Origin: Podarcis filfolensis
Lineage: Eukaryota
Assembly: GCA_964270895.1 (NCBI GenBank)
Contig: OZ185444.1
Length of the DNA stretch: 64,000 nucleotides
Reading direction: 5' to 3' (one strand)
The translations under genes and the position numbers were made by a program. Position 1 is the first letter of the stretch. Every line of letters begins with the position of its first letter. This document shows positions 14,641-60,219 of the stretch, in pieces. The notes below the pieces were generated by a model that saw nothing but the letters and a program-made list of their open reading frames with translations, ran no database searches and had not been told where the DNA came from.

Positions 14641-14673
<33 letters not shown>

Positions 14674-35340: not shown

Positions 35341-36146
35341 CGTTGCGTGTCGAGGTTCCCAGGGCCACCCCGATAACTCACACATCACACAGAATTTTTT
35401 GTTTAAGGTTTTTGGCATAATTCTGGCCACAACTTTATTAAAATACAAACATGTGAGTGGTTGCTTAGCCATTGGTTGCGACTATCTGCCCCCATCATGG
35501 GGGACAGACTGACATTCCGCACGATGCGAAAGTCACTTGGGGGTAGCGACGGAGCAGGGAACCTGCCCTCAGCCCTCCCCAAATGCAACCAGGAGCTCAT
35601 TGCTATGGCCCGAGCCCCCTTGACAGGGTGGACAAGCAATAGTTAGCCCCCGATTCCTTTAACGGCATCTCTTGCAGCAGCAGCATTAGAGGGGCAGGCA
35701 CAGCCAATCCATGCCCCTCAACCAACCAAACCATAAACCAATACCTAACCGCAACCTTACAAGTTGTGAAGATTTGCTATGCAGTAGGCAAAAACCAAAT
35801 GGCCCTAGCCAATCAGCCAGATGGACAAAATTCCTACTGGGCTCCTGCCCCAAGAGCAGACGACCCCATGACAGGCATAGCAAGGTCAAAGCGAACAACC
35901 CTAATTCTAGGGAGGGGGGGATGGGCAATCCAATGCACGGGCGAAAAGAGGAAGCCCTAGCCTCGTGCAAGGAGTTTTAGCATTTCTGGCTGTCAATCAA
36001 CAAATGGCAACATTAACTTCTTCCCAACAACAAGGGAAGCCCCAATCGCATCAGTGGCCAACAGTCAATTAGCCTGCCCCACAACTTTGGAGTGTCCTGG
36101 CGGCCCCCACTGCAACACGTGCTCTCCATGAAGGAGAACATGCTTT
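35341..36146 (-). mobile_element. LTR-like element, copy A (no TSD, terminal hairpin)
   Basis: Highly similar along its length to 45106-45922 and more distantly to 59395-60219. AATAAA on the minus strand near the left end; CCAAT motifs. Confidence 0.8.
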
Positions 36147-36236
36147 CTGAAATCTGAGGAAGTTTCCTCTTGCAGTATAACATATGCACTGCTAATTTTG
36201 GGGGGGGGGGAGAACTCAACATGAATGCTTCCCCCG

Positions 36237-36327
36237 CATAGCTGTCAACATTTTCCTTTTTTTAAGGGGAATTCCCTTATTCCGAATAGGATTTCCCCTT
36301 AAAAAAGGGGGAAAGTTTACAGCTATG
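36237..36327. mobile_element. hAT MITE (copy of the 9662 family) nested in a CAGGGCTT-family element ending at 36416
   Basis: TIRs CATAGCTGTCAAC / GTTTACAGCTATG; TSD TTCCCCCG / TTTCCCCG (7/8). Confidence 0.85.
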
Positions 36328-36591
36328 TTTCCCCGTTCTCTTAGAAGGCAATGGCACCCACCTGAGAGGTGCCGGAACTGAGTTCTGGTGAGTTCCACCT
36401 GGGGAAAAAAGCCCTGAATATATGGTGGTTAACGAAAGAAAAGACAGGAAACCTGCTTCTGAAGGTTATATATAAGGTCCAACATGTTTAGAATTAGGAA
36501 CCCCCCCTTTCGTTTGCAAGTATCTAGTGGTTCATGATCTGTATCATTTTAGCCCGGTTCCTTAGGTTGGGGTGCGGAACTTGTTTCAGGG

Positions 36592-37079
36592 CTGCACTGG
36601 CTCCTGGTGGAGTACAGGACCAGGTTTAAGGTGCTGGTTTTAACCTTTAAAGCCCTATACGGCCTAGGACCCTCATACCTACGGGACCGCCTCTCCTGGT
36701 ATCTCCCACAGAGGACCTTACGGTCTTCAGACAAAAACATCTTGGAGGTCCCAGGCCACAGGGAGGTTAGGCTGGCCTCAACCAGAGCCAGGGCTTTTCC
36801 GGCCGTGGCCCCGATCTGGTGGAACGCTCTGTCACAAGAGACTAGGGCCCTGCAGGACTTGACATCTTTCCACAGGGCCAGCAAGACAGAGCTGTTCCAC
36901 CAGGCCTTTGGCCAAGGCACAGCCTTTGGTAATCCTCACAGAACTCTAGCCCAACTGTTGCCGTTAATTTGATTTGAACTGATTTTAGAATGAATTGATT
37001 TTAGAATGCTGTATTATTTTACTGTTGTTAGCCGCTCTGAGCCCGGCTTCGGCTGGGGAGGGTGGGATATAAATATAAA

Positions 37080-37122
<43 letters not shown>
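36592..37122 (+). mobile_element. L2 LINE 3' fragment with (ATT)n tail
   Basis: ORF 36607-36972: RFKVLVLTFKALYGLGPSYLRDRL..RAFPAVAPIWWNAL..KTELFHQAFG. Confidence 0.9.
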
Positions 37123-37124
<2 letters not shown>

Positions 37125-37608
37125 GTGCTATTTTTTTAAAAAAAGAAGTGCCAGAACTCACCACAAACACCTCCATTGTTCTCTTAGAACGACAATGGTG
37201 CCCATTGCAAGTTTCCCCTGGTTCTATTACTTCATGGATAACTCTCTGGTGATAGGTGCAATGGGTATGATTTTTTTGAGCAATAGGATATGTTCCACCC
37301 AGAGGTTAGTTCTCTCTCCCCCACCTTGTCCTTCCTCATCCACTCATGTCCATTGAGGCAAACAAGAGGCATTAACAGTTAAAGGACACACCTCAGCCAT
37401 GCAAAAGCAGTTGAGATCACAGACCAGCAGGTGGGAGGCTGCTCTGGGGAGAGTTCCAAGTACCAGACTGAGAAACCCATTTGGCCCCTTAAACCTAAGC
37501 ATCCCAAGGTCTCACTTATGTGTAGTTAAATTTAACATTCCCACCCGCAACACACCATTAACGTTTAGTTTTGATCCATGCTGAGAGAGGAGCAGGATGG
37601 GATGGAAA

Positions 37609-37938
37609 TGTTGTTGTTGTTGTTTAGTCTTTTAGTCGTGTCAGACTCTTCGTGACCCCATGGACCAGAGCACGCCAGGCACTTCTGTCTTCCACTGCCT
37701 CCCGCAGTTTGGTCAAACTCATGTTGGCAGCTTCGAGAACACTATCCAACCATCTCGTCCTTTGTCGTCCCCTTCTCTTTGTGCCCTCAATATTTCCCAA
37801 CATCAGGGTCTTTTCCAGGGAGTCTTCTCTTCTCATGAGGTGGCCAAAGTATTGGAGCCTCAGCTTCATGATCTGTCCTTCCAGTGAGCACTCAGGGCTG
37901 ATTTCCTTAAGAATGGATAGGTTTGATCTTCTTGCAGT
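37609..37938 (-). mobile_element. Bov-B LINE 3' fragment
   Basis: ORF 37624-37869 has Bov-B C-terminal motifs; TSD GGGATGGAAA (37599-37608, 37939-37948). Confidence 0.95.
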
Positions 37939-38779
37939 GGGATGGAAAAAGCCTGGTCCTAAACTCTTAATTCATTTCAGAACAGCAAACCCTGTGAAAT
38001 GACATAAGGAAATGGACTTTGTGACTTACTTGTTGGGCAGATTATTATTTTATTTACTGTTGTACACTGGTCTATCTGGTAATGGCTAATATATTTATAT
38101 GAAAATAGCATCAGTAGAGGCTTCCCTTCTCTACTGGTGCCACAATTAATATACAGCAACGTACTCTGTGTGTAAAATATAGCACTCCTCCTGAAATTAA
38201 TATGTATTATAAAAGGAACAGTCTTAACACATGGGGTAGATCAAACTGTAAATACAATTTACAAGAAAATATACATTTCACTGCATATGTTTTTTGCACC
38301 CCACATCTTATAATCTTGTTCTCAGTTCAATGAAATTTTCAGACTGTGGGTAAACACTATTGTTTGATTTTTTTTAAGGGTTTGTGTTTGAGCTGAGACA
38401 CCTTTCTATCCTTTTATGTGTTTGCATTGATGTACAATAATAGGTGGTGAAAGGCTGCTGCTACACTGATGCTTTAATCATAATGTATACTTCACCAACA
38501 CAAGAGTAAGAATATGAGAGCTGCTGTTGCTTTTGTGCTTTCTAACTGCAGGTCACTGTTCTGTAGTTCTTTTATGGAGAGAAAAAAATGAATGTATTAA
38601 AACACTGAAAATATGATCCCTATACAAATATGCTACATTACATTAATTTCTTACTACCTTAAGAGGTTTGTATTTGGCTGAGGTCTGAATTCAGTTAAAC
38701 TACTGCTCCTGAAATGAGATTAGAGAAATTCATGTAGAATAAAGATATCATCGTTGGCTGCTAGTCTTGTCATCTATAT

Positions 38780-38935
38780 ACTGCCTTCGGGTTCAGAGGC
38801 AAACCAGTTGCTGGAGATCAACAGACACTATTTTCCACATGGCCAGGTTGTGGGCTGCTCATATGCATCTGTTTGGACACTGTGGTACTGGAATTCTGGA
38901 ACAGATAGCCCTATGATCTTATCCAGCAGGACTCA
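38780..38935 (+). mobile_element. Degenerate CR1-like LINE 3' fragment
   Basis: AGAGGC..CCAGTTGCTGG..GTGGGCTGCTCATATGCATCTGTTTGGACACTGTG..ATCCAGCAGG resembles the squamate CR1 3' end. Confidence 0.5.
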
Positions 38936-39012
38936 TATTCTCATTTTATTTCTTTTCTTGAAGAATTATGCACTTGAAATGGACATGCACATGCATGTCT
39001 AATTTACAGGTT

Positions 39013-39553
39013 GTTGTTGTTTAGTCATTTAGTCATGTCCGACTCTTCTTGACCCCATGGACCAGAGCACACCAGGCACTTCTGTCTTCTGCTGCCTCCA
39101 GCAGTTTGGTCAAACTCATGTTAGTGGCTTCGAGAACACTGTCCAACCATCTCGTCCTCTGTCGCCCCCTTCTCCTTGTGCCCTCAGTCTTTCCCAACAT
39201 CAGGGTCTTTTCCAGGGAGTCTTCTCTTCTCATGAGGTGGCCAAAGTATTGGAGCCTCAGCTTCAGGATCTGTCCTTCCAGTGAGCACTCAGGGCTGATT
39301 TCCTTCAGAATGGATAGGTTTGATCTTCTTGCAGTCCATGGGACTCTCAAGAGTCTCCTCCAGCACCATAATTCAAAAGCATCAATTCTTTGGCGACCAG
39401 CCTTCTTTATGGTCCAGCTCTCATTTCCATACATCACTACTGGGAAAACCATAGCTTTCACTATACGGACCTTTGTTGGCAAGGTGATGTCTCTGCTTTT
39501 TAAGATGCTGTCTAGGTTTGTCATTGCTTTTCTCCCAAGAAGCAGGTGTCTTT
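39013..39553 (-). mobile_element. Bov-B LINE 3' fragment
   Basis: ORF 39033-39524: TNLDSILKSRDITLPTKVRIVKAMVFPVVMYG..; 13-bp TSD TAATTTACAGGTT (39000-39012, 39554-39566). Confidence 0.95.
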
Positions 39554-41634
39554 TAATTTACAGGTTACTATGCTCTATTATTCCATTGCAGTATACCCAC
39601 TTGGCTGAAATTGCAAATATGTGTGCTGTAGCATCTATGTTAAATACTGTGTTATGGATATTTAATTGAAGTACAACTGTACACTACTCCTTCAAGAATT
39701 TTTGTCAGAGTATATTTAAATCATATATTGCATTAAATCAAAACGTTCTGGAATGTTTTCTTTTCTATTGCCTGATTAAACTAAAAACGAGTGTGAAAAA
39801 GAGTTTGCATAACTTCTTAAACATATCACTTTGCATTTTTATACATATAAAGTTGTGTTAGCAATGGTGATTTTACAATGCTTTATATGTAATGCTTTAT
39901 AGTAAAAGCATGTTTTGCAGCTTGTGTAGTACTTTGAAAATGTTTTGTGGATTAAGCAGTTTTAACTAGGGACAAAGCCAGAAACCTCATTATGTAGTCT
40001 TCAGAATTGACTTGAAATTGATAACTAAAGCAATAGCTAAAGAGCAGAAACACAGAACGTGATTTCATGTGCTGCCGCGGCAAATGTGCTGGACATCTAA
40101 TCTGTCCCCTGTTCTAAAACACAATATACAATACCTAAAAGCACCATGAGGAATGCTTAACCACCCATCACTTTGATCCACTGTTATCTGGACACTAGGG
40201 TTGGTGAAGTTCAACCAAAGGTCATTTATATAGAGAGCACCCCGTATTCCTTTTTGTGGGATGAATTTTACTTGTTTACAAATGCAAACAAATGTAAACA
40301 GCAAGCTTGGAGGAATGTGGCTACCACACTTCTGTTGAACCCATTCCCAATTTTGCTACTAACACCCAGCAGGAAAAGTTGCCTGTGTCCAGGAAGTGTT
40401 AAATACCTCGTTTTGTATGGTCCTAGACACCTTGATGGAGATGGTTCCACTGAAGAAATCCTCCATAGATCCTGAGGACTTTAATAATTATCAGCTGCTT
40501 GTGAATAACCTCTTTTTGAAGAAGATCCTTGAATATGTAGTTGCTATGAAACACCAGACTCTCTGAGATAAAATTGATCATCCAAATCAATTTGAGTCTC
40601 GCTTCCCTGTCCCACTTTTTAAACTTGTTTTATCTTCAACGTTTCTTCCCTTCCATTAAGTTATAAAATGGTAATTTTGATCCATCTTCATACTGCTTTC
40701 TGAATATCATACTTCCACTGAATAAAGCTTTATGTTAATATATTTGCTCACTTTTCATAATATAGAAGGAGGTCCCCGGTAAACAGGCAATATTTTTATT
40801 AGATAACTCTCAGTAAAACCATCGGAGAGGGCTAAATATTACTCAGCCATCACAAAATGGTGGTGGGTGGTGGTAGTGTTTATTTCAGTAATTCCCAGCT
40901 GAGTATGACAGTCCTCTATTGCTCTCTAAACCCTCTGTAAAATTTCCCAAAAGTTTTGCTGTAGTAATTTCCTTTGGGGTGGCAGAAGCAGGTGGTGGGG
41001 TATTATTAGGAGGGAGCAGGGCAATAGTGAGACTGGGGTGGTTTGGGCACACCAGAGAAGCCAATCTTGTCATTCCTGCTCATTGTCGCAGTACATGGCA
41101 GCAATGCCATTGCCAAAGGCTTGATTCATGATTCTACCCATCTGTGCCAGCTGCTACTGCAGCAAGGAGTTCCTGTTTCTTTAAGAACTCCTGAATGGAG
41201 AGAAAACATTGCTGACTCTCCGCCAGAAGCAAATAACATAAAAGTCAAGGTGGGGAAAGGCTGTAAATAAAGAATAAACTGTGTTTCGCCTTTAAAAAAT
41301 AAAGTCAGCCTAATGCCTGTTGCAATATTTATACAAGCATGTGATAACGAGGGAATCAGCTTATAATGAATCTAAATATTAAAAAGAAGGTTGCAAACAT
41401 CTGAAAGCTAGAAAGTACAGCTTTGCACAGAATCTATACAATTCAAAAACTTGTTAAGTTCAGATTCTATTCTGATGACATGCTTGTACGGCATACATAG
41501 CAAAAATGCATTTTGCCACTGTAGTTTTTAGGTTGGCTTTATAAACAGGAGGTAAATATTCTTTATTCACAACTTATTTACATTGACTCTTGCCTTGTTT
41601 TTTTTCCTTAAGAACCTCTTCCCTGTTCCTTGTA

Positions 41635-41842
41635 CAGTGGTACCTTGGTTTAAGAACAGCCCTGTTTCTGAACTATTCGGTTCACGAACTCCGCAAAACC
41701 GGATGTAGTGTCCTGGTTTGCGAACTTTACCTTGGTCTAAGAACGGAAGCCGAACAGTGGAAGGGCACTGGCAGCGGGAGAACTCATTAGGGAAAACACG
41801 CCTTGGTTTAAGAATGGTTTCAGTTTAAGAACGGACTTCTGG
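41635..41842. mobile_element. Truncated pogo/Tigger-like MITE (inverse of the 10526 copy)
   Basis: TA|CAGTGGTACCTTGG left TIR; body matches the reverse complement of 10560-10766; right TIR missing. Confidence 0.8.
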
Positions 41843-41991
41843 TGCTCTATGTTGTACAGTGGTGATCTGATCTGAAATAAATGTAAGTTGCAGGCGATGT
41901 GCCCCTTGAATGACTCTAAATTCTGCTAGCATCCATCTTTGAACAGTCAGTCTTGCAAGCAGTTACGGAGAACACTCTCTCACACACTTGG

Positions 41992-42048
<57 letters not shown>
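41992..42048. repeat. Compound (GT)n(GA)n microsatellite
   Basis: Read directly from the sequence. Confidence 0.95.
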
Positions 42049-42054
<6 letters not shown>

Positions 42055-43333
42055 GCTTTAAACACATCTCAGCAAGTCCCTTAAAGCTGGCTTTTAAGCC
42101 ACTCTGTCCGCACTCTGAGAAGCTATTTTTAAACCTTAATGGAAACTATTGAGCATGGTGATGAAAAACATGGAAAGCAATGTGGAAGTGATATTTAGAA
42201 CTCTGCTTCCAATGAGAAAACAACCATATTTCTTTCTTAGACTCCCCCCGCCCCCTGCACCTACCATTTTATATAGCCAATATATCAGGGTTATAGTTCA
42301 ACTGAGACCCAAACATTTTCTATGTTTCATTTCCTATGAGAGTTAGTGTAGCACAGCAAAAAAATACTGAGTTGGGAATCAACAAGTTCGGATTTTATCT
42401 GCCATGGAGTTGGTGAGTGGACTTAAAAAGTCTTTCTCCGTTTGCTTTAGCCCCACGTCAGTAATAAGGCGATAAAAATTCTGACCTGAATTATATGGTT
42501 GTAGTAAGGATTTCTTAACGTTTACATATGTGAAGCACTTTGATGTGTTCAAAGTGCTACATAACCACTATTCACTATTACTAATACTATGACATGCTTC
42601 TCTTGAGAAACTAAGATAGTGAATAAGAGCTTATTTCAGTCGCTCCTAACAGTCATGAATGCAACTCATCAGTTTGTTTTCTTGTCCCCTCTTCTCTGAG
42701 GTTGTTTGTTACATATTCATTGTGTATTACCCTGATTCCATTTCTTCTTGCAATATTTTTGAGGCAAGGAGCAGCTCTTCCAGTTGTATTGAATAATGCT
42801 AAATATAAAAGTGGATTGCATGGCTGGACACCAATAAAATAATGCAAATGTTTTGTGGTGATGAATAGAATACTCGTGATTGAAGCTTTCTAAACAGATA
42901 TATTAGTTATTAAAATTGTCCAATTTTCCTCTGCAGGAAAATGAAAATGTATCTTTATACAAGTACCGTATGGAAATCTAAGATTTGCATGATAGCATGT
43001 AGGATGAACATGGATTTGTGTTGTGTTTTTAGGCTGCAAATGCATTTCATTGGTTGGTGGTTCATGCCCTGTGCTCTCTGTCTTGTTTCCTATACCAGCT
43101 CTGAATGTTTCTGCCTTCTTTCTGGTATGCCATTTGTGATTCACTGTGGCTGGAAGGGACTAGCCCATTTTCACAGTGCTAAATGTGCATAAATAAGGTT
43201 CCGTTTACGCTTGAGAATTCTGTGCCATAGATTTGTCTTGGACATTTCCTCAGCATTTCCTATCTGTAATATGGGATGAATATTTTCTAGATTAGCTATG
43301 AGATGCCAAGTTCTCTAACAGTATGCTATATTT

Positions 43334-43371
<38 letters not shown>

Positions 43372-43377
43372 GAGAGA
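43334..43377. repeat. (GA)n/(GACA)n microsatellite
   Basis: Read directly from the sequence. Confidence 0.9.
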
Positions 43378-43443
43378 TTTCACCTGAGTTGAGTTCTGTG
43401 TTTGCTGTTTTGAATTATCAGCTCTTGAGGAATATGGGACAGG

Positions 43444-43882
43444 CAGGGCCGGATTTAAGTTTGATGAGGCCCTAAGCTACGTAAGGTAATGGGGCCCTTT
43501 GTATATCCAGCTGTCCTTTGTCAACAACAAACTGTTGCTGTTTTTGTTGTTGTTGTTGAATATATGCTATATGGTAATTTATGGACCTAATAGGTATCTA
43601 AAGCCATTTGCACATGCAGAATGTAGGCACCCTATATATAGAAATGAGCAAACCAGTGATATTTTAGGGAGCAGGCTAGCAGGCGGGGCCCATTACTTAC
43701 ATCATAGGAGCCTACACAACACAAAACACTGTTGCTGTATGTAGGTTTTATTTTATTTGGTTTTTATCTTATATTTTGGAAATGTACATCTAGGTTTTTC
43801 CCCCTCTAATTTTTTGGGGGGACCCCAAGAGAGTGGGGCCCAAAGCTATAGCTTGTTTAGCTTTTTTGTAAATCTGGCACTG
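43444..43882. mobile_element. Non-autonomous TIR DNA transposon
   Basis: Imperfect TIRs CAGGGCCGGATTTA / TAAATCTGGCACTG. No convincing TSD, so the superfamily is uncertain. Confidence 0.6.
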
Positions 43883-45105
43883 AGCAGTACTAATAGCCAC
43901 GAACTGCTGTTCACTGAGATGTTCTGCGTAAGCCCGCAACAGTGGCAGTGAAGCATCAGTTCAGTCTGCTCAAAATCAACAAAGTGTAGGGACAAAAGGT
44001 TTTGTGAAAGAGCCCTTTGACAAATGATAAATGATTCCAAACCGTGAGTGTGAGGGCATGGGCAGAAGTGACTCACCTGGTGGAGCAGAACCAAGCCAGT
44101 AGCTTCCAGGTAGATGTGCGGCTGCTTCTTACCAGGAGGGAGAAGGGAAAGGACATGGCAAGGCAGAAGATGCTCTGGTGGTACCAATCTGGTGCTTCTA
44201 CCAGTGCATCATCATCACCTCTCTTGCCCTCCCACATTTGCTGGTGAGCTGGCTTTGCCACCAGGCTGTATTGCCATTTCAAATCTCATGTTTAGTCGTC
44301 AAAGGGCCGTGTCCTAATTGATAAAAACCTGGAGCAACTTCTTAAGTTTTTGAGGTAATTAGGTAATTCACGGTGAATCAAATATGTCAATGTTTGCCGT
44401 TTACACAGTCTGTTGGTGAATCGTTTTCTACAAAATAAATCTGGAGGGAGAACTCCTGAAATGTCATGATGAGATATTTCTAAATAAAGACAACGCTTTC
44501 TCAATTTTGGAAATGGGAGTATGATGTTAATTCATAGATTTGTTTGCTTCTCTTTACTTTTTGAATATGAGGCATTACCAAAATAGTGCTTTGCTGTGAT
44601 ATGGACATTCGTATATAAAACTATTTAGCTGGCACCAATTCTCACAGTTTAATTCCTACAGATCTAATGCACCCAAGTCAAAGAACGTTGCATCATGTGT
44701 ACGTAAAGCTGGTAAAGCCTCCCTATTTTTCAGTTGCATGTTTTGAGGAAATATGCATTTAATTCATATTGTCTGGAAATGATCAGAAGAAACTTGATCA
44801 TCTATCATCTCCTGGCTGATGGGGAATCATATTGGTATTTTAGTGATCTCTGTCAAAACTTTGGTTAACTACTCCCAACACATATGACATTTACATTTAA
44901 AGATAGAAAATAGTGTACAGTATAAATAGTTTGTACATGGTAGATGTCTATGTTTCCATAGGTTTTCAAATCCGTTAGAACTCTTCATCATTGATTGCCT
45001 CTAATATTATTGCACAAATTAATGATCTGATTGGAAAATGTTCAACTCAGTGGGGATCTTAATCTTTCAGTCCTTCTTTTGCCTCTTACTTAAAAGTGCA
45101 AACAT

Positions 45106-45922
45106 TGTTGTGTGTCGAGGTCCCCAGGGCCACCCCAATAACTCACACATCACACCAAATTTTTGTTTAAGGTTTTTGGCATTATTTTGGCCACAACTTT
45201 ATTAAAATACAAACATGTGAGTGGTTGCTTAGGCATTGGTTGCGACTAGCTGCCCCCACCATGGGGGACAGTCTGACATTCTGCACACCTGTGAAAGTCA
45301 GAAAAGGGGAATACACTTGGGGATAGCGACGGAGCAGGGAACCTGCCCTCAGCCCACCCCAAATGCAGCCAGGAGCTCTTGCAGTGGCCTGAGCCCCTTG
45401 ACAGGGTGGACAAGCAATAGTTAGCCCCTGATTCCTTTAACGGAATCCCTTGCAGCAGCAGCATTAGAGGGGCAGGCACAGCCAATCCATGCCCCTCAAC
45501 CAACCAAACCACAAACCAATGCCTAACCGCAACCTTACAAGTTGTGACGATTTGCTACGCAGTAGGCAAAAACCAACTGGCCCAGCCAATCAGCCAGATG
45601 GACAAAATTCCTACCGGGCCCCTGCCCCAAGAGCAGATGATCCCATGACAGGCATAGCAAGGTCAAGCGAACAACCCTAATTCTAAGTGGGGGGGAGATG
45701 GGCAATCCAATGCACGGGCGAAAAGAGGAAGCCCTAGCCTCGTGCAAGGAGTTTTAGCATTTCTGGCTGTCAATCAACAAATGGCAACATTAACTTCCTC
45801 CCAACGACAAGGGAAGCTCAATCGCATCAGTGGCCAACAGTCAGTTAGCCTGCCCCACAACTTTGGAGTGTCCTGGCGGCCCCCACCGCAACACGTGCTC
45901 TCCATGAAGGAGAACACGCTTT
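45106..45922 (-). mobile_element. LTR-like element, copy B
   Basis: Highly similar to copy A; homology stops at the same two ends. Confidence 0.8.
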
Positions 45923-48153: not shown

Positions 48154-48410
48154 AGAAGGAAGAAGAAGAAGAGTTTGGATTTGGTATCCCACTTTATCAC
48201 TATCTGAAGGAGTTTCAAAGCAGCTAACATTCTCCTTTCCCTTCCTCCCCCACAACAAACACTCTGTGAGGTGAGTGGGGCTGAGAGACTTCAAAGAAGT
48301 ATGACTAGCCCAAGGTCACCCAGCAGCTGCATGTGGAGGAGCGGGGACACGAACCCGGTTCACCAGATTATGAGTCTACCGCTCTTAACCACTACACCAC
48401 ACTGGCTCTC
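48154..48410 (-). mobile_element. tRNA-derived SINE with L2-like 3' end
   Basis: Reverse complement of the 8543/51437 family; (GAA)n on the + strand is the tail. Confidence 0.88.
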
Positions 48411-48469
48411 TAAATTTACATAACATAAAAGGAATTTACATAACAGAGGTAATTGAGAGAAAGCTGATC

Positions 48470-48770
48470 TCGAAACCACAGCAACGTGCATATTAAAAAC
48501 ATATAAGATTCAGAATGATACCCAAGACTGTGAACCTGTATTGATGTGGTGACAAGCACCCCACTGATAATTAGCAAAGTTAACTGATCCAGGGTACACA
48601 GATTTCTCAGCGACACTGCCTCCATTTTTTTTAAAAATGGATTTTGTTTTAGTCTGTTCAACCTCATCTGTTCAACCACAGATTACAAACTCTAGTTAAG
48701 GGCAGAGATTATAGCTGTGCCGACTAGAAATCCAAACCTGAACATCCTGATTGATTTCCAAGAATTTCAG
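48470..48770 (-). mobile_element. Ancient L2-like RT fragment
   Basis: ORF 48416-48679: MRLNRLKQNP..KME..SGVLVTTSIQVHSLG loosely resembles L2 RT (WMRANKLKLNPDKTE..DGVALPL..QVRSLGV). Confidence 0.45.
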
Positions 48771-50118: not shown

Positions 50119-50765
50119 TTCTTCTTCTTTGGCGATCACTCGTAGCCGAGTAAGATTGTCTTTCATAAACACAGCTTTAACAGTGAGTCCGTAAGTGACT
50201 GTGGAGGCCAATTCTGGATCCACATGTCCTCCTACAGTGGGGACGTTGGTTTCCGGGTGGGAGTTGATCACAGTGTGGATTTGCCAAGCTTGCCTTCCTC
50301 TTAGCTCATTTCTCGCTTTCACCCTGTGTTCGAGTGTCTTCAAAGCCCATGACACCTTTGGTAAAGGCTGTTCTCCAATTGGAGCGCTCGCAGGCCAATG
50401 TTTCCCAGTTGTTGGTGTTTATACTACATTTTTTTAGATTTGCCTTGAGAGAGTCTTTAAACCTCTTTTGTTGACCACCAGCATTACACTTTCCATTTTT
50501 AAGTTCGGAATAGAGTAGTTGCTTTGGAAGACGATAATCAGGCATCCATACAACATGACCAGTCCAACGAAGTTGATGTTGAAGAATCATTGCTTCAACA
50601 CTGGTGATCTTTGCTTCTTCCAGTACACTGATATTAGTTTGCCTGTCTTCCCAAGTGATGTGTAAAATTTTTCGGAGACACTTTTGATGGAATCTTTCGA
50701 GGAGTTGGAGATGGTGTTTATAAGTGGTCTGTGTTTCACAAGCATACAGTAAGGTTGGTAGTACA
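50119..50765 (-). mobile_element. RTE-clade LINE 3' fragment (non-Bov-B) with (GAA)n tail
   Basis: ORF 50306-50590: ILQHQLRWTGHVVWMPDYRLPKQLLYSELKNG..GGQQKRFKDSLK; TSD ATTTG(C/T)CCATC (50108-50118, 50766-50776). Confidence 0.9.
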
Positions 50766-51436
50766 ATTTGTCCATCAAGATGATTCTGAACATGCTGCAG
50801 TTTTTATTTCGGGGGAACCCCAGCCCAAATCACTGAGGAGATACTTACTCAAGGGGACTGTGTACACTAATCACACAACAATGACAGCCGGCATTATTCT
50901 TCTTTTGTGTGCACCCTTCCTCCTTTCTCTGTGTTACTGTAGGTCTTTCTGAATCTATTTGGTAACACTTCCTTCTTTTGCCTTTCAACTGATGGAATAG
51001 GGTGTGTGCTGTTTTCTCTGCTACCAAGAATACTGTCTCCATATCTGTCACTCCCCTTTTGGTGTTTTCCCACAGATCAGTACTCCTTGTGCCACAGTTT
51101 TTAGTAATCTGTTTCCTCACCCCATAGGTCTCACTGCACCCATCCAGTCTCAAAATCTGTCCCTCTTCTTCAGTTTCTGTGTTTGTTTTGTTAGTTGCCT
51201 CCTCACGGAAGCCTAGTCCCTGTATTTCAGTGTGTATCACTTGTCTGGGTATTCCTGCTGCCTGCAAGGTTGCAATCTCAAAGCAGTGATTCATGCAGAC
51301 CTGCTCCATTTGCCTCTTCTGGGGTGGCATGTTGTGCCCCTCTTTCCATCAGGTTTAAAGGATCCACTCACACCAATGTAGACACAGGCATAATTCGTGC
51401 AGTAGTGGAAAGGGCAGCTGCCTCTCTATGTGGTAT

Positions 51437-51680
51437 GGAACCAGTGTGGTGTAGTGGTTAAGAGCAGTAGACTCGTAATCTGGTGAACCGGGTTCGCGTC
51501 TCCACTCCTCCACATGCAGCTGCTGGGTGACCTTGGGCTAGTCACACTTCTCTGAAGTCTCTCAGCCCCACTCACCTCACAGAGTGTTTGTTATGGGGGA
51601 GGAAGGGAAAGGAGAATATTAGCCGCTTTGAGACTCCTTCAGGTAGTGATAACACGGGATATCAAATCCAAACTCTTCTT
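51437..51680 (+). mobile_element. tRNA-derived SINE with L2-like 3' end
   Basis: Homologous to 8543-8791 and 48154-48410. Confidence 0.88.
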
Positions 51681-51690
51681 ATGTTGATAC

Positions 51691-52323
51691 TGTGGGATGT
51701 GATCCATGAGAGGCAGTCAAGTACAACATTCCTTGTAATGCTAGAGAAGACATGTGAGGGAATGTTTGGTCCAGCGAGTCAAAACTTCCTGTTCCTCCTG
51801 GCTGGAGCATCCTTCCTTTTCCATGTGATAGAAGGTGGGTGTGACCTAACCTGTCCAGGTAACAAAAGGATGAGTCACGCAGCACACTTCCCTCTTTTTG
51901 ACTTCCTTCTTCATTTGACCAGCTTCTAAGAAGGACTGCTCTGCTAGCTCTCAGCTAGCAGAAGCACTGGGATTATTCCCCCATATGGGGTAGATCCACA
52001 TGTACATATTTGTAACTAAGCCTGCCTTCAGGAATCCAGCTCTGAACTGATGTGAGTAAACTTCTTTTATTGACTTTGAATAAGATTGCCGTGTCTTTGT
52101 TCTTTTAAGAGGGATTCAAGGGAACTTACCAGGAACGTACAATTCAATCTGAGACAGACTGAATTGTATAATAGTGAGAGGCTCACACGAGCCTGCAACC
52201 AGCTGTTTGCTGTGCATATAAAAGGGGAGGAATGTAATTCTGCTACATAAAGGAACTTGCTAGCGCAAGGTAGGAATGATATTAATAAACAATATATCCC
52301 CTGCCACCCTGAACATCCCCACA
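51691..52323. mobile_element. Solo LTR, 633 bp
   Basis: TG...CA ends with short inverted termini TGTGGGAT / ATCCCCACA; perfect 5-bp TSD GATAC (51686-51690, 52324-52328); left end repeated at 2130. Confidence 0.72.
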
Positions 52324-54373
52324 GATACTTGATTTTACAGGAGTCTTTCTTTAATTTATTTCCCATGCCGTACCTGCAATTCTCTTGTGATACAATTTTA
52401 GAATGACTTATCTGACTCTGAATTATCCTCTCAGCTACAAACCATCAACATGTCCATGCCAGAACTTTGCCACTCGGTCACAAATGTACAGGAAGCTGAA
52501 ATATACAGGCAGCAAACATTATTTGAATGCTGACATAGCTTCATTATATCCTCTGTTTTCTCAAAGGATTGTGGGTCCTTAGTTGGCAGAAAATATGTTG
52601 TTTGATTCGTTTAGTCTGGCAAGTATTTTCTTCCTCTCCTAGCAAAGTGGATATACAGTTTCCTGGCTGCTAGAATTTTCCTGTGTCCTCTACAATAAAG
52701 TAAAATGCAAAGATCTGGTTTCCTCACTGGCAAAACATTATTTGCCTTCAAGCTTATATTGAAGATCAGATTTTGTACCCAGCGCTGGGTTTTTAGTGTT
52801 CTTTTTGCTGAAAGTGGGAGTTTTATTTTGGTAGCTGGCAAGGAAACATTGTGTCCTTTAGCTGATAGTGGAGATTGGATTCTCATTGACTTTGAAAGAA
52901 ATGTTTTAGTGTTCAGACTTGCCCTGAAGTGCTTAATTTGAAAACAGGCACTCAGGCGAGGAAAAGTTACCACAGTGCATAAAATAATGCAACATGCTAA
53001 TAAAAACTTATTATTAATTTCAGTTCAAGCCCTGCCTTAATAAACTTTATTCCACATAATATATTCTGTTCCTTATCTGCAGTGTACAGAAGATGCTTGG
53101 GGTGTGATTTTTCTTGAAATAAATTACTTTTATTGTACATTATGCATTCTGTTTGTTAAAGAGATTGTTTTAGGTACAGAGAAGAGAATTAAATTTGGTT
53201 TTAAAAACTACTTAACAACTGTTTTGAAAATTACAGATCACCTATGATAACCATACTTTATAACTGGCAAATCATAGCTGTGAATTGGCTTGAAAAGCAA
53301 TCGTGTATGGCATTCAAACATCATTTAACATTCTTACACTTCATTAAATGTACATGTGTTTATCTTTATAATTTGCAAGTTGCCTTATCATATTGCCATA
53401 ATTGGAAATAATGACTATTTTCCTGAACATAGGGAATTTCAATGTACATAATCAAGCCATGACTGTTGAAATAGCAGCATCAACAAGTCAACAGACATTT
53501 TCTTGAATTTCATAAACTCATTTTTCCGTTTCATCAAAATGAATCAATAATAATACTTAACAGGAATAGGATGAATGTACCAAAGAGACAGCTTTTACAA
53601 TCTTTTCAGTCATTTTATTAGTCTTTATGAACTATAAATTGTGAAATTCCCTAAAGCGCTTAGTGATCTGAATGTTTATGTTGCTTATTGCATATTGATT
53701 TCTAACTACTTGATTGTTAAAATTCGTGTGCATTGTTCATGTATACTATTCATTCCTTGATAGTCCCATGCATTCAACTTCGAATAATTGCATCTAGAAG
53801 CAATGTTTCACCTTTTCTGATTATCAATTTTTACCTTTCTTCCAAGTCATATAGAACTGCAGGATTTGAGGAGAGAGTAACTTCTATCAGGAAATGATAA
53901 TGTGATATTCTATTCTTGGAGGGAGGAAGCACATGCTTTGTGTCTTGGAAATATTTTCTCAATTTGATACTATTATACACATAGCTCAAGGTTTAAACAC
54001 CATCTTTATCACTAAGCATTAGATTATCTCCAGCTAATATAGCTGGATAAAAATATTATTCAATTATTCCACAGTACAGAATGCAACATTATTTCTGTGT
54101 CCGCTGAAAATTATTCATGTTAAACTAAGCTAGGAGATATACCTGCTGATTATCTCTTTGGCTGTTGAAAACAGAGAATGTTTCTCTCTTTAGACACTTG
54201 AGGGTTTGCTTTCTATTTTGAGCAAATATCATTTTGAGTCTTAATTAATAACCAAGTCTTAAAAGGGCAGTGCCATCCTTGATTTCATCCCTGTCAAGCA
54301 TAAACTGTGTGTGTGACTAAAAGATTCGGAAATCAAAGATGGATAAGAAGTTGGCCACGAATCATTCTTACTA

Positions 54374-54409
54374 AAACAAACAAACAAACAAACAAACAAA
54401 CAAACAAAC
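54374..54409. repeat. (AAAC)n microsatellite
   Basis: Read directly from the sequence. Confidence 0.95.
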
Positions 54410-54531
54410 CAGAACAAACAACATTTTCAATGTAAATGTTTACTGTAGTTATTTTTTTGCAGAAAAAGAAACCAAATGTTGTGTCCATGGCAAGCTTCTT
54501 CAAGAGCTGCCATATTACTGTTTGTTTAAGG

Positions 54532-54666
54532 CAGGCGTGGCCAAACTTGGCGCTCCAGATATTTTGGGACTACAATTCCCATCACCCCGACCGCTGGTTC
54601 TGTTAGCTAGGGATGATGGGAGTTGTAGTCCCAAAACATCTGGAGGGGCAAATTTGGCCATGCCTG
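54532..54666. mobile_element. Palindromic hAT-type MITE (related to the 30245 copy)
   Basis: CAGGCGTGGCCAAA / TTTGGCCATGCCTG; perfect 8-bp TSD GTTTAAGG (54524-54531, 54667-54674). Confidence 0.92.
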
Positions 54667-55799
54667 GTTTAAGGGCTGCAGACACCACTCCACCATGTAG
54701 AGACCACACCTGAACCCATCTGTCAGGTCCCCTGAGAAGCTTTCACCGGCAAGGATGGGCAGGGGTCAAGAGAACATGAAACTGTACTAAATAAGCTTTT
54801 GGACATTTGAGTCTGAAATTTACTGGGGGTACTCAATTACTCTTGGCTAAACCATCTAGGGTACCTTAGTTATAAAAGCATTGATAAATCTTGCTCCATT
54901 TGGAATAAAGACAGCTTCTTCCATGCCTTGAGATCTGCGTGGAAGAAAATACATGTGAAAAAAACCTTAATTGTTCAGGTCCCCCCCCCCCATCTTGCCC
55001 TGTCTTTTGAATCACCCTGATGATGGTTTGACCAGTCAGAGCATTTAAAGGATTTAAATACAGATATTAGAGGAGGCTAAATTTTTTAAAGATGTACCGG
55101 AAGCCAGGATTTTCTCTCTGATGAGCTAGTGAAGTATTTCTACTTCATGATTGTTCTGTTCAGATTCTTTGGAGAGACATTATCCTTTCTATTTTTAAAC
55201 TAAACGAAATGCACATGCAAATCAGCAGCAGATTTGCCTAATGCACACTTAACACATTTGATCATTAGGTAGAACAGTCAGTCTCAAATATTCACAGGAT
55301 CAGATTTCTTGTGCCTTTACATTTTGGTGTGTGCTGAGCGAGAGCACGCTAATGAAGCATTATCTTAATTGTGCTAATGCAATAGATTCTCATGCCGTCT
55401 CACAGTATATTTTTCAAGCTTTGCAATAATTATCAAATAGCTTTTCATATTTGACCTATTTTTTAAAAGATCTTAAAAGCTATGCTTTAAGAACAATGTC
55501 TTAGTGTTCTCTAGGCATTGAGACCAAAGTTGATTCCAATTTCCATTCACATCATACATTTTTTTCTAACATCAAAAGCAGATAATTCACATTAGCATCA
55601 GATACTTACTGGTACAATATCATTTAAAAAAATAAAATGGAATAATTACTCTTTAGAATAAAGCTTGGAGGAGAGGCTCATAATTTGCACATTTTTCATG
55701 TTTTAATTTAAGGAAAGAGAGGAACAAGCTCTTGCTCGATGGTCCAGTCAAGGGGTTGCATCCAGTGGTGGCCTTGCCTTTGTGGGACACTTGGTTTTG

Positions 55800-55946
55800 A
55801 GATGGCTCAGTCTGTAGAGCATGAGACTCTTAATCGCAGAGTTGTGGGTTCAAGTCCCACATTGGGCAAAAGATTCCTGCACTGCAGGCGGTTGGACTAG
55901 ATGACCTTCATGTTCCCTTCTAACTCTACAGTTCTATGATTCGATT
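55800..55946 (+). mobile_element. tRNA-Lys(CTT)-derived SINE with CR1-type tail
   Basis: GCTCAGTCTGTAGAGCATGAGACTCTTAATC..GTGGGTTCAAGTCCCACATTGGGC closely follows tRNA-Lys(CTT) with CpG-type decay; the 5' acceptor strand is missing. Followed by GTTGGACTAGATGA..CCCTTCTAACTCTACAGTTCTATGATT. Confidence 0.8.
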
Positions 55947-56087
55947 ATTTTCTTCTACTCACGTAAGCCTTCTGTCCTCCTCCAAAGCTGCTCTTGAAGC
56001 CTGTGTGTGTGTGTTTGTGCGCATGCATACATACATGCCCATCTGGAACAGAATGAGATATAGCATGGAGGGCTGCAGTATTTAGTA

Positions 56088-56411
56088 AAGGTAAAGGTAA
56101 ACGGACCCCTGACCATTAGGTCCAGTCGTGTCCGACTCTGGGGTTGCGGCGCTCATCTCGCTTTATTGGCCGAGGGAGCCGGCATGCAGCTTCCGGGTCA
56201 TGTGGCCAGCATGACTAAGCCGCTTCTGGAGAACCAGAGCAGTGCACGGAAACACCATTTACCTCCCTGCCGGACGTGCTTTCAGACTTCTAGGTTGGCA
56301 GGAGCAGGGACCGAGCAACGGGAGCTCACCCTGTCACTGGGATTCGAACCGCCGACCTTCTGATCGGCAAGTCCTAGGCTCTGTGGTTTAACCCACCGCA
56401 CCACCGGCGCC
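56088..56411 (-). mobile_element. Sauria SINE with an internal deletion
   Basis: 15-bp TSD CTGCAGTATTTAGTA (56073-56087, 56412-56426). Confidence 0.95.
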
Positions 56412-56520
56412 CTGCAGTATTTAGTAGGGATCAGCAAAAACTGGTGCTTCTTTCTATGTAGAGAGATAACAGTTACGCCTCTCATGTATTTCACCTTTTA
56501 GGGATGGAATATTGATTTAG

Positions 56521-56809
56521 ACCCAATCGCCTTCTCAATCCGGCCCGCGGACGGTTCGGGAATCAGCGTGTTTTTACATGAGTAGAATATGTCCTTTTAT
56601 TTAAAATGCATCTCTGGGTTATTTGTGGGGCCTGCCTTGTTTTTTTTACATGAGTAGAATGTGCGCTTTTATTTAAAATGCATCTCTGGGTTATTTGTGG
56701 GGCATAGATATTCGTTCATTATTATTTTTTCAAAATATAGTCCACCCCCCGCCACAAGGTCTGAGGGACAGTGGACTGGCCCCCTGCTGAAAAAGTTTGC
56801 TGACCGCTG
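56521..56809 (+). mobile_element. hAT-type non-autonomous element, 5'-truncated
   Basis: Homologous to 60759-61072, with the same internal ~60-bp tandem unit. Confidence 0.8.
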
Positions 56810-56977
56810 CTGTACACTAAGACTATCACAGGCCAAGTAAAAGTTTTGCTAACTCTCTGTTAGTTTTCCAGCAAGGGCCCCTCTCATATACATTAGTGGC
56901 TGCCAGGCACTCCTATAGGGAAAAGTAAAAGGCTGAAGTTGAATATCCAGACCCTATGCGGAAAAGCTTTCCCAATA

Positions 56978-57238
56978 CAGTGGTACCTCGGGTTACATAC
57001 ACTTCAGGTTACATATGCTTCAGGTTACATATGCTTCAGGTTACAGACTCCGCTAACCCAGAAATAGTGCTTCAGGTTAAGAACTTTGCTTCAGGATGAG
57101 AACAGAAATCGTGCTCTGGCGGCGCGGCAGCAGCAGCAGGAGGCCCCATTAGCTAAAGTGGTGCTTCAGGTTAAGAACAGTTTCAGGTTAAGAACAGACC
57201 TCCAGAACAAATTAAGTACTTAACCTGAGGTACCACTG
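56978..57238. mobile_element. pogo/Tigger-like MITE
   Basis: TA|CAGTGGTACCTCGG ... CTGAGGTACCACTG|TA. Confidence 0.92.
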
Positions 57239-58566
57239 TAGTGGCAACATGTAATCACATGGGAAAATGCCCTAGGCTTCATTGCATTGTCCATCATAAG
57301 AAGTGGCATTTTGCTAGTTTATGCATACATCTGTGTATACGGCAGACTTCTAAATAGCTACTTATTGGCAACAAACATTCTTTCTTTCTTTCTTTATTAT
57401 TATTATTAATTAAATTGTATCCTGCCTCAAAAGAGCTGAGGGCAACAAATACCAAAGTAGTGAAACATTACAATTTATAAAAAGTGAGCAAATGGGAGAG
57501 GGGTATTTTTCCCAGTGGTTGCCATACCAAAAAATGTTCCCTTGCATTGGTATGCATCAACAAACGATCTTGGAAAAAGTTTTGTGGGCTGTTACTATTA
57601 AATGGAAGTATTTCCAGAGAGAGAGGAGTTTAATTGATTGTGGTAATGTTAAGACTATGGAGTTTTTGAGCGGTGTTCAGAGGGACCCTGAGGTTCATTG
57701 AAAGCTTATAAGGGTGTTTTTCAAATACGTTTATGTTTGGGTTTGTCAAGAAAATGTAAGTCGTCTATTTTACGGAAGTCATCTCGAATAGCGCTGAGTG
57801 CCAATAGAATGACAAAGTGTTTACTATATTATTCCAGCAAAGTACTAATCATGTGCTAAAGAGTGACATTGAAGCCTGCAGTTTGTGATTTCTAATGCAT
57901 GTCAAGATCTTCATTAATATGCACATTAATGGAGCATAATTGACTGTAAGCCAGATGGACAGTGGTAAAATACTTAATAACGAACCTCTTCAATGCAGTA
58001 TTTGCTGCCTCAAGGAGAACAATAAAAGCATCCACATTTCCTTTAATGTCATTCAATAAAATGCTGGCATATTAGCAAGCAAAATGATCGTGTTGTGCAA
58101 GGTCTTTAAAGATTTGGCGAAGTGAAATCCATTAAGCCATAAATTGCTGGAGTGCAAGAGTTTACCAAGAGAGAGCAGAGGAACGTATCTATACCTTATG
58201 ACTGTTGCATATATTTATTTATTTATTTAAAAAAGAGAAACAATTAGTACTGCAGATGGCAATGTGAGAGGATAAGGAAATAATTTCTTCAGCTAGGAAA
58301 ATAACAAGTCATTATGAGCTGAGCCCAACGGTCTCCAGGTTTGGGCCTAGCTCATAACCAGCATGTCAGGAATCAGCTAATCTTAGTACTCAATCCATTA
58401 TCTCGGGTGTGTTGGGGTGTGTGTGAATATATTAGAACAATATTCACTCTAATGCCAATCCTGTTAGTATCGGGATAAAGCTTTTTTACACTTTGAGAAG
58501 TCTATAATTGTTTTCAGCTTTCAATTTATGACCTTTACTGCTAGAGTGCATAGTAGATGTTAGCAT

Positions 58567-58568
<2 letters not shown>

Positions 58569-58617
<49 letters not shown>

Positions 58618-59100
58618 ATACCGCTCATCTGACTGGGCAGCTCCCAACAAAATATTAAAAACACAGTGAAACACCAACCGTTAAAAACTCCCCTGCCTTC
58701 AGATGTCTTCTAAAGGTTATGTAGTTACTCATCTTCCTGACATCTAATAGGAGGGGATTCCATAAGGAGGGCGCCACTACCGAGAAGGCCCTTTGCCTGG
58801 TTCCCTGTAGTTTCACATCTCACAGTGAGGGAAACACCTAAAGGCCATCAGAGCTGGATCTCTGTGTCTGGGCTGGATGATGGAGTGGAGATGTTCCTTC
58901 AGGTATACAGGGCCGAGGCCTTTTAGGGCTTTCAAAGTCAACAGAAACACTTTGAATTGGGCCCGTAAACGTACTGGGAGCCAGTGTAGATACCTTAGGA
59001 CCAGTGTTATATGGTCCCAGCAGATGCTCCCAGTCACCAGTCTAGCTACTGCATTCTGGATTAGCTGTAGTATCTGAGTCACCTCCAAAGGTAGCTCCAC
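58569..59100 (-). mobile_element. L2 LINE 3' fragment with simple-repeat tail
   Basis: ORF 58813-59100: LQLIQNAVARLVTG..HITLVLRYLHWLPVRLRAQFKVFLLTLKALKGLGPVYLKEHL. Confidence 0.88.
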
Positions 59101-59394
59101 ATAGGGTGCATTGCATTAAGTAGTATGCCAACAAGTTATGTGGGGACTGCATTCTAGAATCGCACCTAAAGCCAAAATCATGTTTAGTCAAAGCCCATTG
59201 GGTTCTATGGTACACGGAATTGCCAAAGTCATTTTCCCCAGAATCCCACCCCTTCCTACCCTCTTTTGAATTTATTTTATTTTTTTGCCACATGTATAAA
59301 GCTGAATGAGCACAAATTGAATGCACATAATTTGTGGGCATACTGCCGTAACTATGGAGTAACCTGATAGGAAGCCCGTGCTGGTATTCCTGAT

Positions 59395-60219
59395 AAATCG
59401 TGTACTCCATCATGGAGAGCACGCATTGCAGTGAGATCATCAGAACTGCCTCCATGTTGTGGGGCGGGACCATTCGAATAGCCACATCACCCCATTGGAT
59501 ACCCCTTGGTTGCTGGGGCAGAAATTTGGCCGGTTGGGTTGTTTATTGGCTGCCAAGGGGCTATTTAAGCTGCTGCACGTCGCTGGGAACTTTCTCTTTC
59601 TTGCAATGTACACCGGATTACCCTCCCTCCTTATATTTAGGGCTTTTCTTTTGGCCTTGCTATGCCTATCTAGGGGTCGTCAGTTTTGAAGCAGGGGCCC
59701 ATTAGGAATTTTGCCATTTGGCTGATTAGCTGTTGTCATTTGGTTTTTGCCCACCATGTAGCAAATCATCACAACTTTGTAAAGTTGGCGGTTAGGCATT
59801 GGTTCAATGTTTTTCGGGGGGGGGGGGGAGTCGTTGGCTGTGCCTGCCCCTCCATTGCTGCTGCTAGGGAATTCCGTTAAAGGAATCCAGGGGCTCGCCT
59901 TGCTTTTGTCCGAACCCTGTCATGGGGCTATGTCCACGCTAGAGTCCCTGGGAGCATCTGGGGTGAGCTGTGAGAGTGAAGCCAACTTTGTGTTCCCCCA
60001 GAATGCTTTCCCTTACTGACCTCTGGTGATGCCCAGTTATCAGTCCTGTTCCTGCCACTGTACAGGTTCAGGTAGTCTGGAACCATGCCTAAGCAACCAC
60101 TCTCATGCCATAACCAATAAAGTTGGGGCCAAACATTATTACTCAAAACCTTAAACTAAAATTCTTTGTCTATTGTGTATTTATTTGGGGGATGATTTTG
60201 GGGGTCTTCACACACAACG
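59395..60219 (+). mobile_element. LTR-like element, copy C (diverged subfamily, same strand as TAFA5)
   Basis: Homologous to the reverse complements of copies A/B at both ends and internally (GCCTTGCTATGCCT..GGGGTCGTC..AGGAATTTTG); AATAAA at 60116-60121. Confidence 0.75.

What the first reader, a model, noticed from the sequence alone, without database searches (positions are those of the whole stretch)
35341..60219. TSD-less ~0.8-kb LTR-like family with a conserved terminal hairpin (three copies)
Seen: copies A (35341-36146, -), B (45106-45922, -) and C (59395-60219, +) end at the same positions, yet no TSD exists under any boundary I tried. A and B have an LTR-like core, TGTTGC...CAAC(A/G), with AATAAA and CCAAT. 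All three also share ~29 nt outside that core: AAAG-CGTGTTCTCC-TTCAT-GGAGAGCACG, a 10-bp stem with a 5-nt loop (C: AAAT-CGTGTACTCC-ATCAT-GGAGAGCACG). This is not a polypurine tract. Known: integrase-made solo LTRs leave 4-6-bp TSDs, as the 51691 LTR does, while tyrosine-recombinase retroelements (DIRS/Ngaro) and Helitron/Helentron-type elements do not. Inference: these are solo repeats or non-autonomous derivatives of such an element, and the hairpin is the recombinase or nicking site.
Basis: partly seen in the sequence, partly recalled or inferred. Interest (0 to 1): 0.7.

Follow-up and report, generated by a model that had tools for sequence, protein, structure and literature searches.

The report
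Ngaro solo repeats, folded docking site
These three 0.8-kb repeats are leftover end-pieces of a lizard jumping gene (a Ngaro retrotransposon) whose two ends, when joined, form a conserved folded stem around the exact insertion point, which suggests that such elements likely paste in from a folded single DNA strand, as bacterial integron cassettes do.

Summary
The three copies are real but end 2 bp earlier than stated (35343-36146, 45108-45922, 59395-60217). They are solo A-X-B remnants of a Ngaro tyrosine-recombinase retrotransposon: the same genome holds full elements A1-gag-RT/RNaseH-YR-SGNH-B1-A2-X-B2 with the same ends, 66-72% identical to the window copies; at least 1,287 X|B sites exist. 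There is no TSD, only a shared AA. The hairpin is the inner half of a larger fold that forms only where B's end meets A's start: 4 bp, a bulged A, 5-6 bp, the crossover in a 2x2 loop, 4 bp, an invariant T.G (22 of 22 distinct junctions), 3-5 bp. Pairs covary across seven families (P 4/5040; 0.0016). Left AA varies (12-15 of 113), right AA hardly (1 of 119), and no permuted element was seen (0 of 13), which the textbook double-stranded circle with a staggered core does not predict. Best reading: an attC-like folded single-strand site with one strand exchange (inferred; an RNA role remains possible). Helitron2 and LTR readings fail. The scan noted such solos and this fold before in other genomes; my paper searches did not find it.

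The parts
35343..36146 (-). Copy A: solo A-X-B of a Ngaro retrotransposon, both AA dinucleotides included
   Evidence: layout from full elements
36107..36144 (-). Copy A start: 2-nt loop side, inner hairpin (one G>A decay) and 3' arm of the outer stem
45108..45922 (-). Copy B: solo A-X-B; its flank-element junction is also present in contigs of four other organisms
45708..45922 (-). Repeat A part of copy B (approximate 3' border; A1=A2 is 209-224 bp in full elements), with a TATA-like position near base 165
   Evidence: border by homology
45894..45918 (-). Inner hairpin of copy B: 10-bp stem with T.G at position 5, 5-nt loop
45883..45893 (-). 3' side of the 2x2 loop (TG) and 3' arm of the outer stem (TTGCG+4), complementary to the element's own far end
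45532..45707 (-). Unique spacer X between A2 and B2 (approximate), single-copy in full elements
45562..45614 (-). ENE-like U-rich internal loop in X (GTAGG..UUUU..CC / GG..UUUUU..CCTAC), kept in all families looked at; function inferred
   Evidence: lead from e1-9066372
45108..45531 (-). Repeat B part of copy B (B1=B2 is 423-438 bp in this family), with AATAAA at 45203-45198
45108..45118 (-). Terminal arm of B: 4 nt, bulged A, 5 nt ending in AA; 5' arm of the outer stem in a B|A junction; crossover after this AA
59395..60217 (+). Copy C: solo A-X-B of an older sister subfamily (members 89% alike on average)
59397..59434 (+). Copy C start: inner hairpin and outer 3' arm; its subfamily swaps T-A for C-G at inner pair 6 and pairs TCAC/GTGA beyond the bulge (19 of 19)

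Best explanation
The three repeats are solo A-X-B end-pieces of a Ngaro retrotransposon, and their terminal hairpin is half of a fold spanning the B|A junction that likely serves, as a folded single DNA strand, as the docking site where the element's Cre-like tyrosine recombinase would exchange one strand with a double-stranded target just after an AA. Shown: parent layout, ends, target bias (T.TGRBAA^MW), one AA in empty sites, covarying fold with the crossover at its 2x2 loop. Inferred: single-strand substrate, one exchange resolved by replication or repair as for integron attC, the T.G and the bulge (each about 6 nt from the cut, on either side) halting a second cut; which strand is used is not settled. 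Solos arise by loss of A1-ORFs-B1, likely helped by recombinase use of the internal junction; they lack the repeats to copy themselves through RNA.
For: Parent: 14 of the 24 best YR loci carry A1..B1-A2-X-B2 with 99-100% identical repeats homologous to the window copies; RT E 1e-12, YR over cut-off, SGNH E 2e-5, CCCH gag E 2e-4, RNase H-like E 0.02; YR model pLDDT 94.8, best match Cre TM 0.78. Fold: T.G at inner pair 5 in 22 of 22 distinct junctions while pairs 1-4, 6, 8 change on both sides; 44 of 56 Watson-Crick cells in 7 family representatives, 4 of 5040 permutations as good, slid registers 22-34; beyond a 1-nt bulge (A in 18 of 19) 60 of 76 cells pair against 15-21 in three other registers, permutation P 0.0016; junction z -5.1. 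Single cut: left dinucleotide not AA in 15 of 113 (12 after removing 3 misalignments), right in 1 of 119, Fisher P 1e-4 on the raw counts; joined flanks align gap-free to paralogous repeats in 8 of 82 sites, 7 with one AA; at L118 (left AT) flank contigs of three other organisms match through the AT and stop at the element edge (indirect). Base +1 is A (71) or C (64) of 180, the two bases that could pair after an exchange with the fold. No permuted element in 13 of 13 junctions found by pattern alone. Solos outnumber the B1xB2 deletion product roughly tenfold, the reverse of what repeat length and distance predict for plain homologous recombination.
Against: No biochemical or intermediate evidence. 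The prediction made beforehand (note) that base +2 follows the loop base held between families (C 10 of 25 and 10 of 19 against 13 of 110) but failed in the same-family control (3 of 26, P 1). G.U, a bulged A and a purine-rich 2x2 loop are also typical of RNA motifs, and the junction is transcribed. The plus strand folds better (21 of 22, mean 1.8 kcal/mol), but the single-stranded cDNA seen for DIRS-1 is antisense (PMC7192593). The YR is closer to Cre than to IntI (TM 0.78 against 0.57), and the arms are short for a Cre-like dimer. The seven families are related (50-88% identical), so permutation values are not strict probabilities; outer pairs 1, 2, 3, 5 were used as anchors. No full element of the window's own subfamilies was found (2 hits, both chance). 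The solo ratio rests on two exact patterns of unequal recall, and selection against long inserts could also produce it.
Confidence: 0.55

Rival explanations
1. Same identity (Ngaro solos), but the fold works in the RNA: a Gag or RT binding signal for packaging, priming or strand transfer at the transcribed B1|A2 junction; integration then uses a double-stranded junction cut at AA.
For: Plus strand more stable in 21 of 22; invariant G.U, bulged A and purine-rich loop are RNA-like (recalled); these elements have no known primer (PMC7192593 passages); X holds another RNA-type motif; the +2 test failed within the family.
Against: The crossover falls exactly at the stem-loop border in every family; left/right asymmetry of the AA is not explained by an RNA role; both distortions lie about one Cre-type stagger (6 nt, recalled) from the cut.
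Confidence: 0.3
2. Same identity, textbook mechanism: a double-stranded two-junction circle recombines over a 2-3-bp core; the inverted repeats are just protein-binding arms, and solos come from ordinary A1xA2 homologous recombination.
For: Standing model for DIRS-order elements (PMC7192593 passages); solo AB repeats read this way in Cafeteria (PMC8547959 passages); elements ending at B1 are common (10 of 24; 20 of 30).
Against: Complementary arms lie about 35 nt apart, with a one-sided bulge and a never-corrected T.G; the short ACACGC-AAA-GCGTGT palindrome is confined to one family; mismatches fall on the left end only; 0 of 13 permuted elements.
Confidence: 0.12
3. Non-autonomous Helitron2/Helentron: read on the other strand, 5'-T start, short asymmetric inverted repeats, 3' hairpin, insertion at TT.
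For: The anatomy matches the published description closely (PMC3627910 passages): inverted repeat at one end, its partner about 30 nt from the other end beside a hairpin, no TSD.
Against: The same unit is the 3' block of RT+YR elements, with 99-100% identity between young solos and full elements; the Rep domain search gave 0 matches, though without a positive control.
Confidence: 0.02
4. Solo LTR of an integrase-using ERV/Gypsy element with TG...CA ends.
For: TATA-like and AATAAA signals in LTR order.
Against: No TSD in about 110 copies; the CA after CAA is target DNA; parents encode a YR and no integrase domain was hit.
Confidence: 0.01

Closest known systems
Ngaro retrotransposons with SGNH hydrolase ORF (Xenopus DIRS-53_XT type; PMC9210276, passages)
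   Same: A1-gag-RT/RH-YR-SGNH-B1-A2-B2 order, identical repeat pairs, overlapping ORFs; YR relatives in lizards and frogs.
   Different: A unique 170-190-bp spacer X sits between A2 and B2; repeats are longer (A 209-224, B 423-438 against 236 and 152); the passages read describe no folded junction.
Solo AB repeats of Cafeteria Ngaro (PMC8547959, passages) and SIRE = VIPER A2+B2 (PMC6681497, passages)
   Same: Isolated A..B units scattered through the genome, with an element-specific middle piece in SIRE.
   Different: Here over a thousand copies in several age classes; ends, target bias and reciprocal A-ORFs-B product are resolved.
Integron attC site (PMC2727003, PMC4792948, passages)
   Same: Structure conserved without sequence conservation: stem, unpaired spacer at the crossover, unpaired bases, variable loop; crossover next to AA with GTT on the partner arm; one-sided exchange inferred.
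   Different: Eukaryotic retroelement; Cre-like enzyme, not an IntI relative; loop is 2x2; the bulge lies in the outer stem; substrate use untested.
Helitron2/Helentron ends (PMC3627910, passages)
   Same: Short asymmetric inverted repeats plus subterminal hairpin, no TSD, T-rich target on one strand.
   Different: Parent encodes RT and YR; resemblance is convergent, and could mislead annotation.
ENE poly(A)-protecting element of the Evade retrotransposon (PMC12501189, abstract)
   Same: U-rich internal loop between two stems upstream of the poly(A) signal.
   Different: Here in spacer X, so only beside B2; triple helix not tested.

Membership tests
Ngaro (DIRS order) | Split direct repeats A1-ORFs-B1-A2-B2 | tested here: met
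   14 of 24 best YR loci, repeats 99-100% identical, with a spacer X before B2; window copies 66-72% identical to the nearest A2-X-B2
Ngaro (DIRS order) | Tyrosine recombinase instead of DDE integrase | tested here: met
   PF00589 over cut-off, R-K-HxxR-W-Y intact, Cre-like model; no integrase family hit in the 11 ORFs scanned
Ngaro (DIRS order) | RT and RNase H, gag-like ORF1 | tested here: met
   RVT_1 E 1e-12; RVT_3 E 0.022 with D-E-D-D motifs by eye; zf-CCCH E 2e-4, both under cut-off
Ngaro (DIRS order) | No methyltransferase; SGNH hydrolase after YR in some vertebrate members | tested here: met
   No Dam hit in ORF2; Lipase_GDSL_2 E 2e-5 and 5e-4, under the curated cut-off
Ngaro (DIRS order) | RT/YR phylogeny inside the Ngaro clade | not tested
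   No reference Ngaro sequences held; Dfam/Repbase not available
Ngaro (DIRS order) | No TSD, only a short shared core | tested here: met
   AA core; empty-site alignments with one AA
DIRS1-like | Inverted terminal repeats and internal complementary region | tested here: not met
   Repeats are direct
Helitron2/Helentron | Asymmetric inverted repeats plus subterminal hairpin, no TSD | tested here: met
   (9-10 bp with a bulge)
Helitron2/Helentron | Autonomous partner with Rep-helicase | tested here: not met
   Partners encode RT+YR; PF14214 search 0 matches, no positive control
Integrase LTR element (ERV/Gypsy) | 4-6-bp TSD and TG...CA ends | tested here: not met
attC-type folded single-strand site | Structure conserved by covariation around the crossover, with unpaired bases | tested here: met
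attC-type folded single-strand site | One strand exchange only | tested here: inconclusive
   End asymmetry supports; +2 pairing test mixed
attC-type folded single-strand site | Recombinase acts on the folded strand | not testable with these tools
   Needs biochemistry
attC-type folded single-strand site | IntI-family enzyme | tested here: not met
   Model nearer Cre (TM 0.78) than IntI 2a3v (0.57)

The most novel reading that the evidence does not exclude
Ngaro retrotransposons integrate like integron cassettes: a Cre-like recombinase takes a folded single-stranded B|A junction, exchanges one strand at AA, and the retained internal junction lets the A-X-B unit loop out and reinsert as a cassette, which is why solos swamp full elements. 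This would be a structure-specific single-strand recombinase in vertebrate genomes, evolved apart from IntI.
Probability: 0.4. Interest if true: 0.82.

Novelty: new variant of a known kind. Interest (0 to 1): 0.58.

Why it matters
How DIRS-order retrotransposons integrate is untested: YR specificity had not been studied experimentally as of PMC7192593 (passages). This family gives an exact crossover, a target consensus and a 50-nt covarying structure with named invariant positions, so the question becomes directly testable with short oligonucleotides and one protein. It also warns that such solos mimic both solo LTRs and Helentrons. The repeat copies themselves are ordinary dead remnants.

Tried and rejected
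Head-to-tail pattern for the A/B subfamily: 2 hits, both chance flanks. Helitron Rep search: none, control silent. Rfam: only a weak tRNA hit elsewhere. ACACGC-AAA-GCGTGT as a double-stranded two-arm site: dropped, absent in six other families. +2 base prediction: failed in the within-family control. Orthologous empty site for copy B: none, the insertion is shared by the four organisms laid; contigs break inside the repeat, so solo versus full element there cannot be told. PDB sequence searches: nothing useful. Rows dropped: 3 of 25 loci with a B1/B2 repeat among the F1-F7 set gave no scorable junction (L174 damaged arm; L176, L195 duplicated B) before the 22 distinct junctions were counted; L262, L298 and loci without a poly(A) signal in range left out of the +1/+2 counts; copy A fell out of the paired-end count through an off-by-one cut. 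One paper search returned only lizard ecology. Complex prediction not used.
Full report
Observation. The three copies align over their length and belong to a large family in a 1.5-Gb genome: 3,379 and 4,265 first-look candidates for B and C (40 scored each) and 1,287 exact matches to a pattern at the X|B border. The nearest named relatives of the family's recombinase come from Podarcis and Lacerta, so the host is probably a lacertid lizard. Flanks of 60 copies fix the ends: AA, then AG/AT/GT and the hairpin, and at the far end CACGC-AA. The stated 3' ends include two target bases. No TSD is present.

The parent. A recombinase search led to loci with gag (CCCH finger), RT, RNase H motifs, YR and an SGNH-like ORF, followed by B1-A2-X-B2, with A1 about 4.6 kb upstream of YR. 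Of the 24 best YR loci (at least 62% identity, of 122 scored and 1,230 candidates), 14 have this full layout with 99-100% identical repeats and 10 stop at B1. The window unit is A (209-224 bp) + X (about 170-190) + B (423-438). Nearest full elements are 72%, 72% and 66% identical to A, B and C; 24 young solos are 98.7-100% identical to full elements. This is the Ngaro layout with hydrolase ORF (PMC9210276, PMC3783388, passages), and solo AB units are known (PMC8547959, PMC6681497, passages). Identity is therefore near certain (about 0.97), although no full element of the window's own subfamilies turned up. Read backwards the unit fits Helitron2 anatomy (PMC3627910, passages), but its partners are RT-YR elements.

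The fold. In full elements B1 abuts A2, restoring the head-to-tail junction. Across 22 distinct junctions from seven families that are 50-88% identical the sequence after AA differs wholly, yet one structure holds: 5-6 bp between B's end and a stretch about 31 nt into A, a 2x2 loop (RG / mostly KG) starting at the crossover, four pairs, T.G in 22 of 22, then 3-5 pairs and a variable loop. One representative per family gives 44 of 56 Watson-Crick cells; 4 of 5040 permutations reach this; slid registers give 22-34. The outer stem continues past one bulged base (A in 18 of 19) with 60 of 76 cells paired against 15-21 for other registers (P 0.0016 over seven families). The solos keep both halves at their two ends: T.G in 24 of 24 A/B-type, 17 of 19 C-type and 24 of 24 young copies. 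Limits: families are related, and four outer pairs served as anchors.

The crossover. The left dinucleotide is not AA in 15 of 113 ends (three are misalignments), the right in 1 of 119; two further unbiased sets add 2 of 27 and 2 of 28 on the left. So the left AA is target DNA and the right AA element DNA: one cut point, not a staggered core that would scatter mismatches to both ends. Target bias lies mostly 5' of the cut (T-8, T-6, G-5, R-4, not-A-3, AA), with A or C at +1 (135 of 180). Joined flanks match paralogous repeats without a gap in 8 of 82 sites, 7 with one AA. For young solo L118 (left AT), contigs of three other organisms match through the AT and end in 7 unmatched letters at the element edge, as an empty site would; those letters were not shown. 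A prediction written down first, that +2 follows the loop base, held between families but not within. All 13 junctions found by pattern alone are B1|A2-X-B2, and none of 48 distinct held junctions is permuted (that wider set is biased), so the two junctions of the proposed circle are not used equally.

Mechanism. The YR model is Cre-like. Integron attC sites are the precedent for structure-defined sites with one exchange and replicative resolution (PMC2727003, PMC4792948, passages). I infer the same here (0.55): YR binds the folded junction, swaps one strand at AA, and the T.G or the bulge, each about 6 nt from the cut, blocks a second cut. The plus strand is favoured by stability and by where the target bias lies; the minus strand by the antisense single-stranded cDNA of DIRS-1 and by TT homology at the swapped ends. 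An RNA role is the main rival (0.3). For solo origin, a rough estimate for this family is about 1,200 solos, 120 A-ORFs-B and 80 full elements (1,287 X|B matches; 599 B1-context matches, of which 10 of 30 inspected are this family and 4 of those 10 full). Homologous recombination should favour B1xB2 (longer, closer), so a recombinase-driven route is suggested, but pattern recall and selection are not controlled.

Other signals. Copy B's junctions occur in four other organisms, so it is old and shared.

Novelty. Ten paper searches (listings only, plus the passages named) showed no description of a folded Ngaro junction; the library lacks most subscription papers, including Goodwin and Poulter 2004 and Poulter and Butler 2015, and no supplements were read. 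The scan's own note e1-9809039 reports the same idea in another genome; I saw it after reaching the result, and it is not independent support. Verdict: known kind of element and remnant, with an apparently undescribed, well-supported junction structure that makes the integration mechanism testable. Interest 0.58.

Noticed in passing
L156-L164 (G000 C2, C4, C9, C12, C13, C19, C20): Elements with decayed RT and YR (31-49% identity, fragmented) but 99-100% identical A and B repeats: non-autonomous lineages that were still being copied recently.
   Followed up: partly
L185; L298-L299; L287, L289: Miniature forms with little or no coding region (A1-short-B1-A2-X-B2, and short A-B units), including a perfect internal junction in L298-L299.
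   Followed up: no
G000 contig C19 (43 Mb): 42 of the 122 scored YR matches lie on this one contig, about 3% of the genome; possibly a W-like chromosome (guess).
   Followed up: no
G000:C133:36690-43499 (L067, L076): A 52-kb contig with a bacterial-type phage integrase (E 9e-25) and dense phage-like ORFs; probably contamination of the assembly.
   Followed up: no
L074:5921-5933 and 6245-6256; same in L075: The unique sequence just before B1 is complementary to a stretch inside B that in B2 pairs with X instead: B1 and B2 may fold differently, which could decide which poly(A) signal is used.
   Followed up: no
L176, L190, L195: A subfamily with a 311-bp internal duplication in B that is carried in both B1 and B2.
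   Followed up: no
window 12000-15400: GC-rich island with a probable first coding exon near 15088; the three solos may lie in introns of or beside this gene.
   Followed up: no
window 55803-55860: Weak Rfam tRNA match (38 bits), probably a SINE head; several SINE and LINE fragments fill the window.
   Followed up: no
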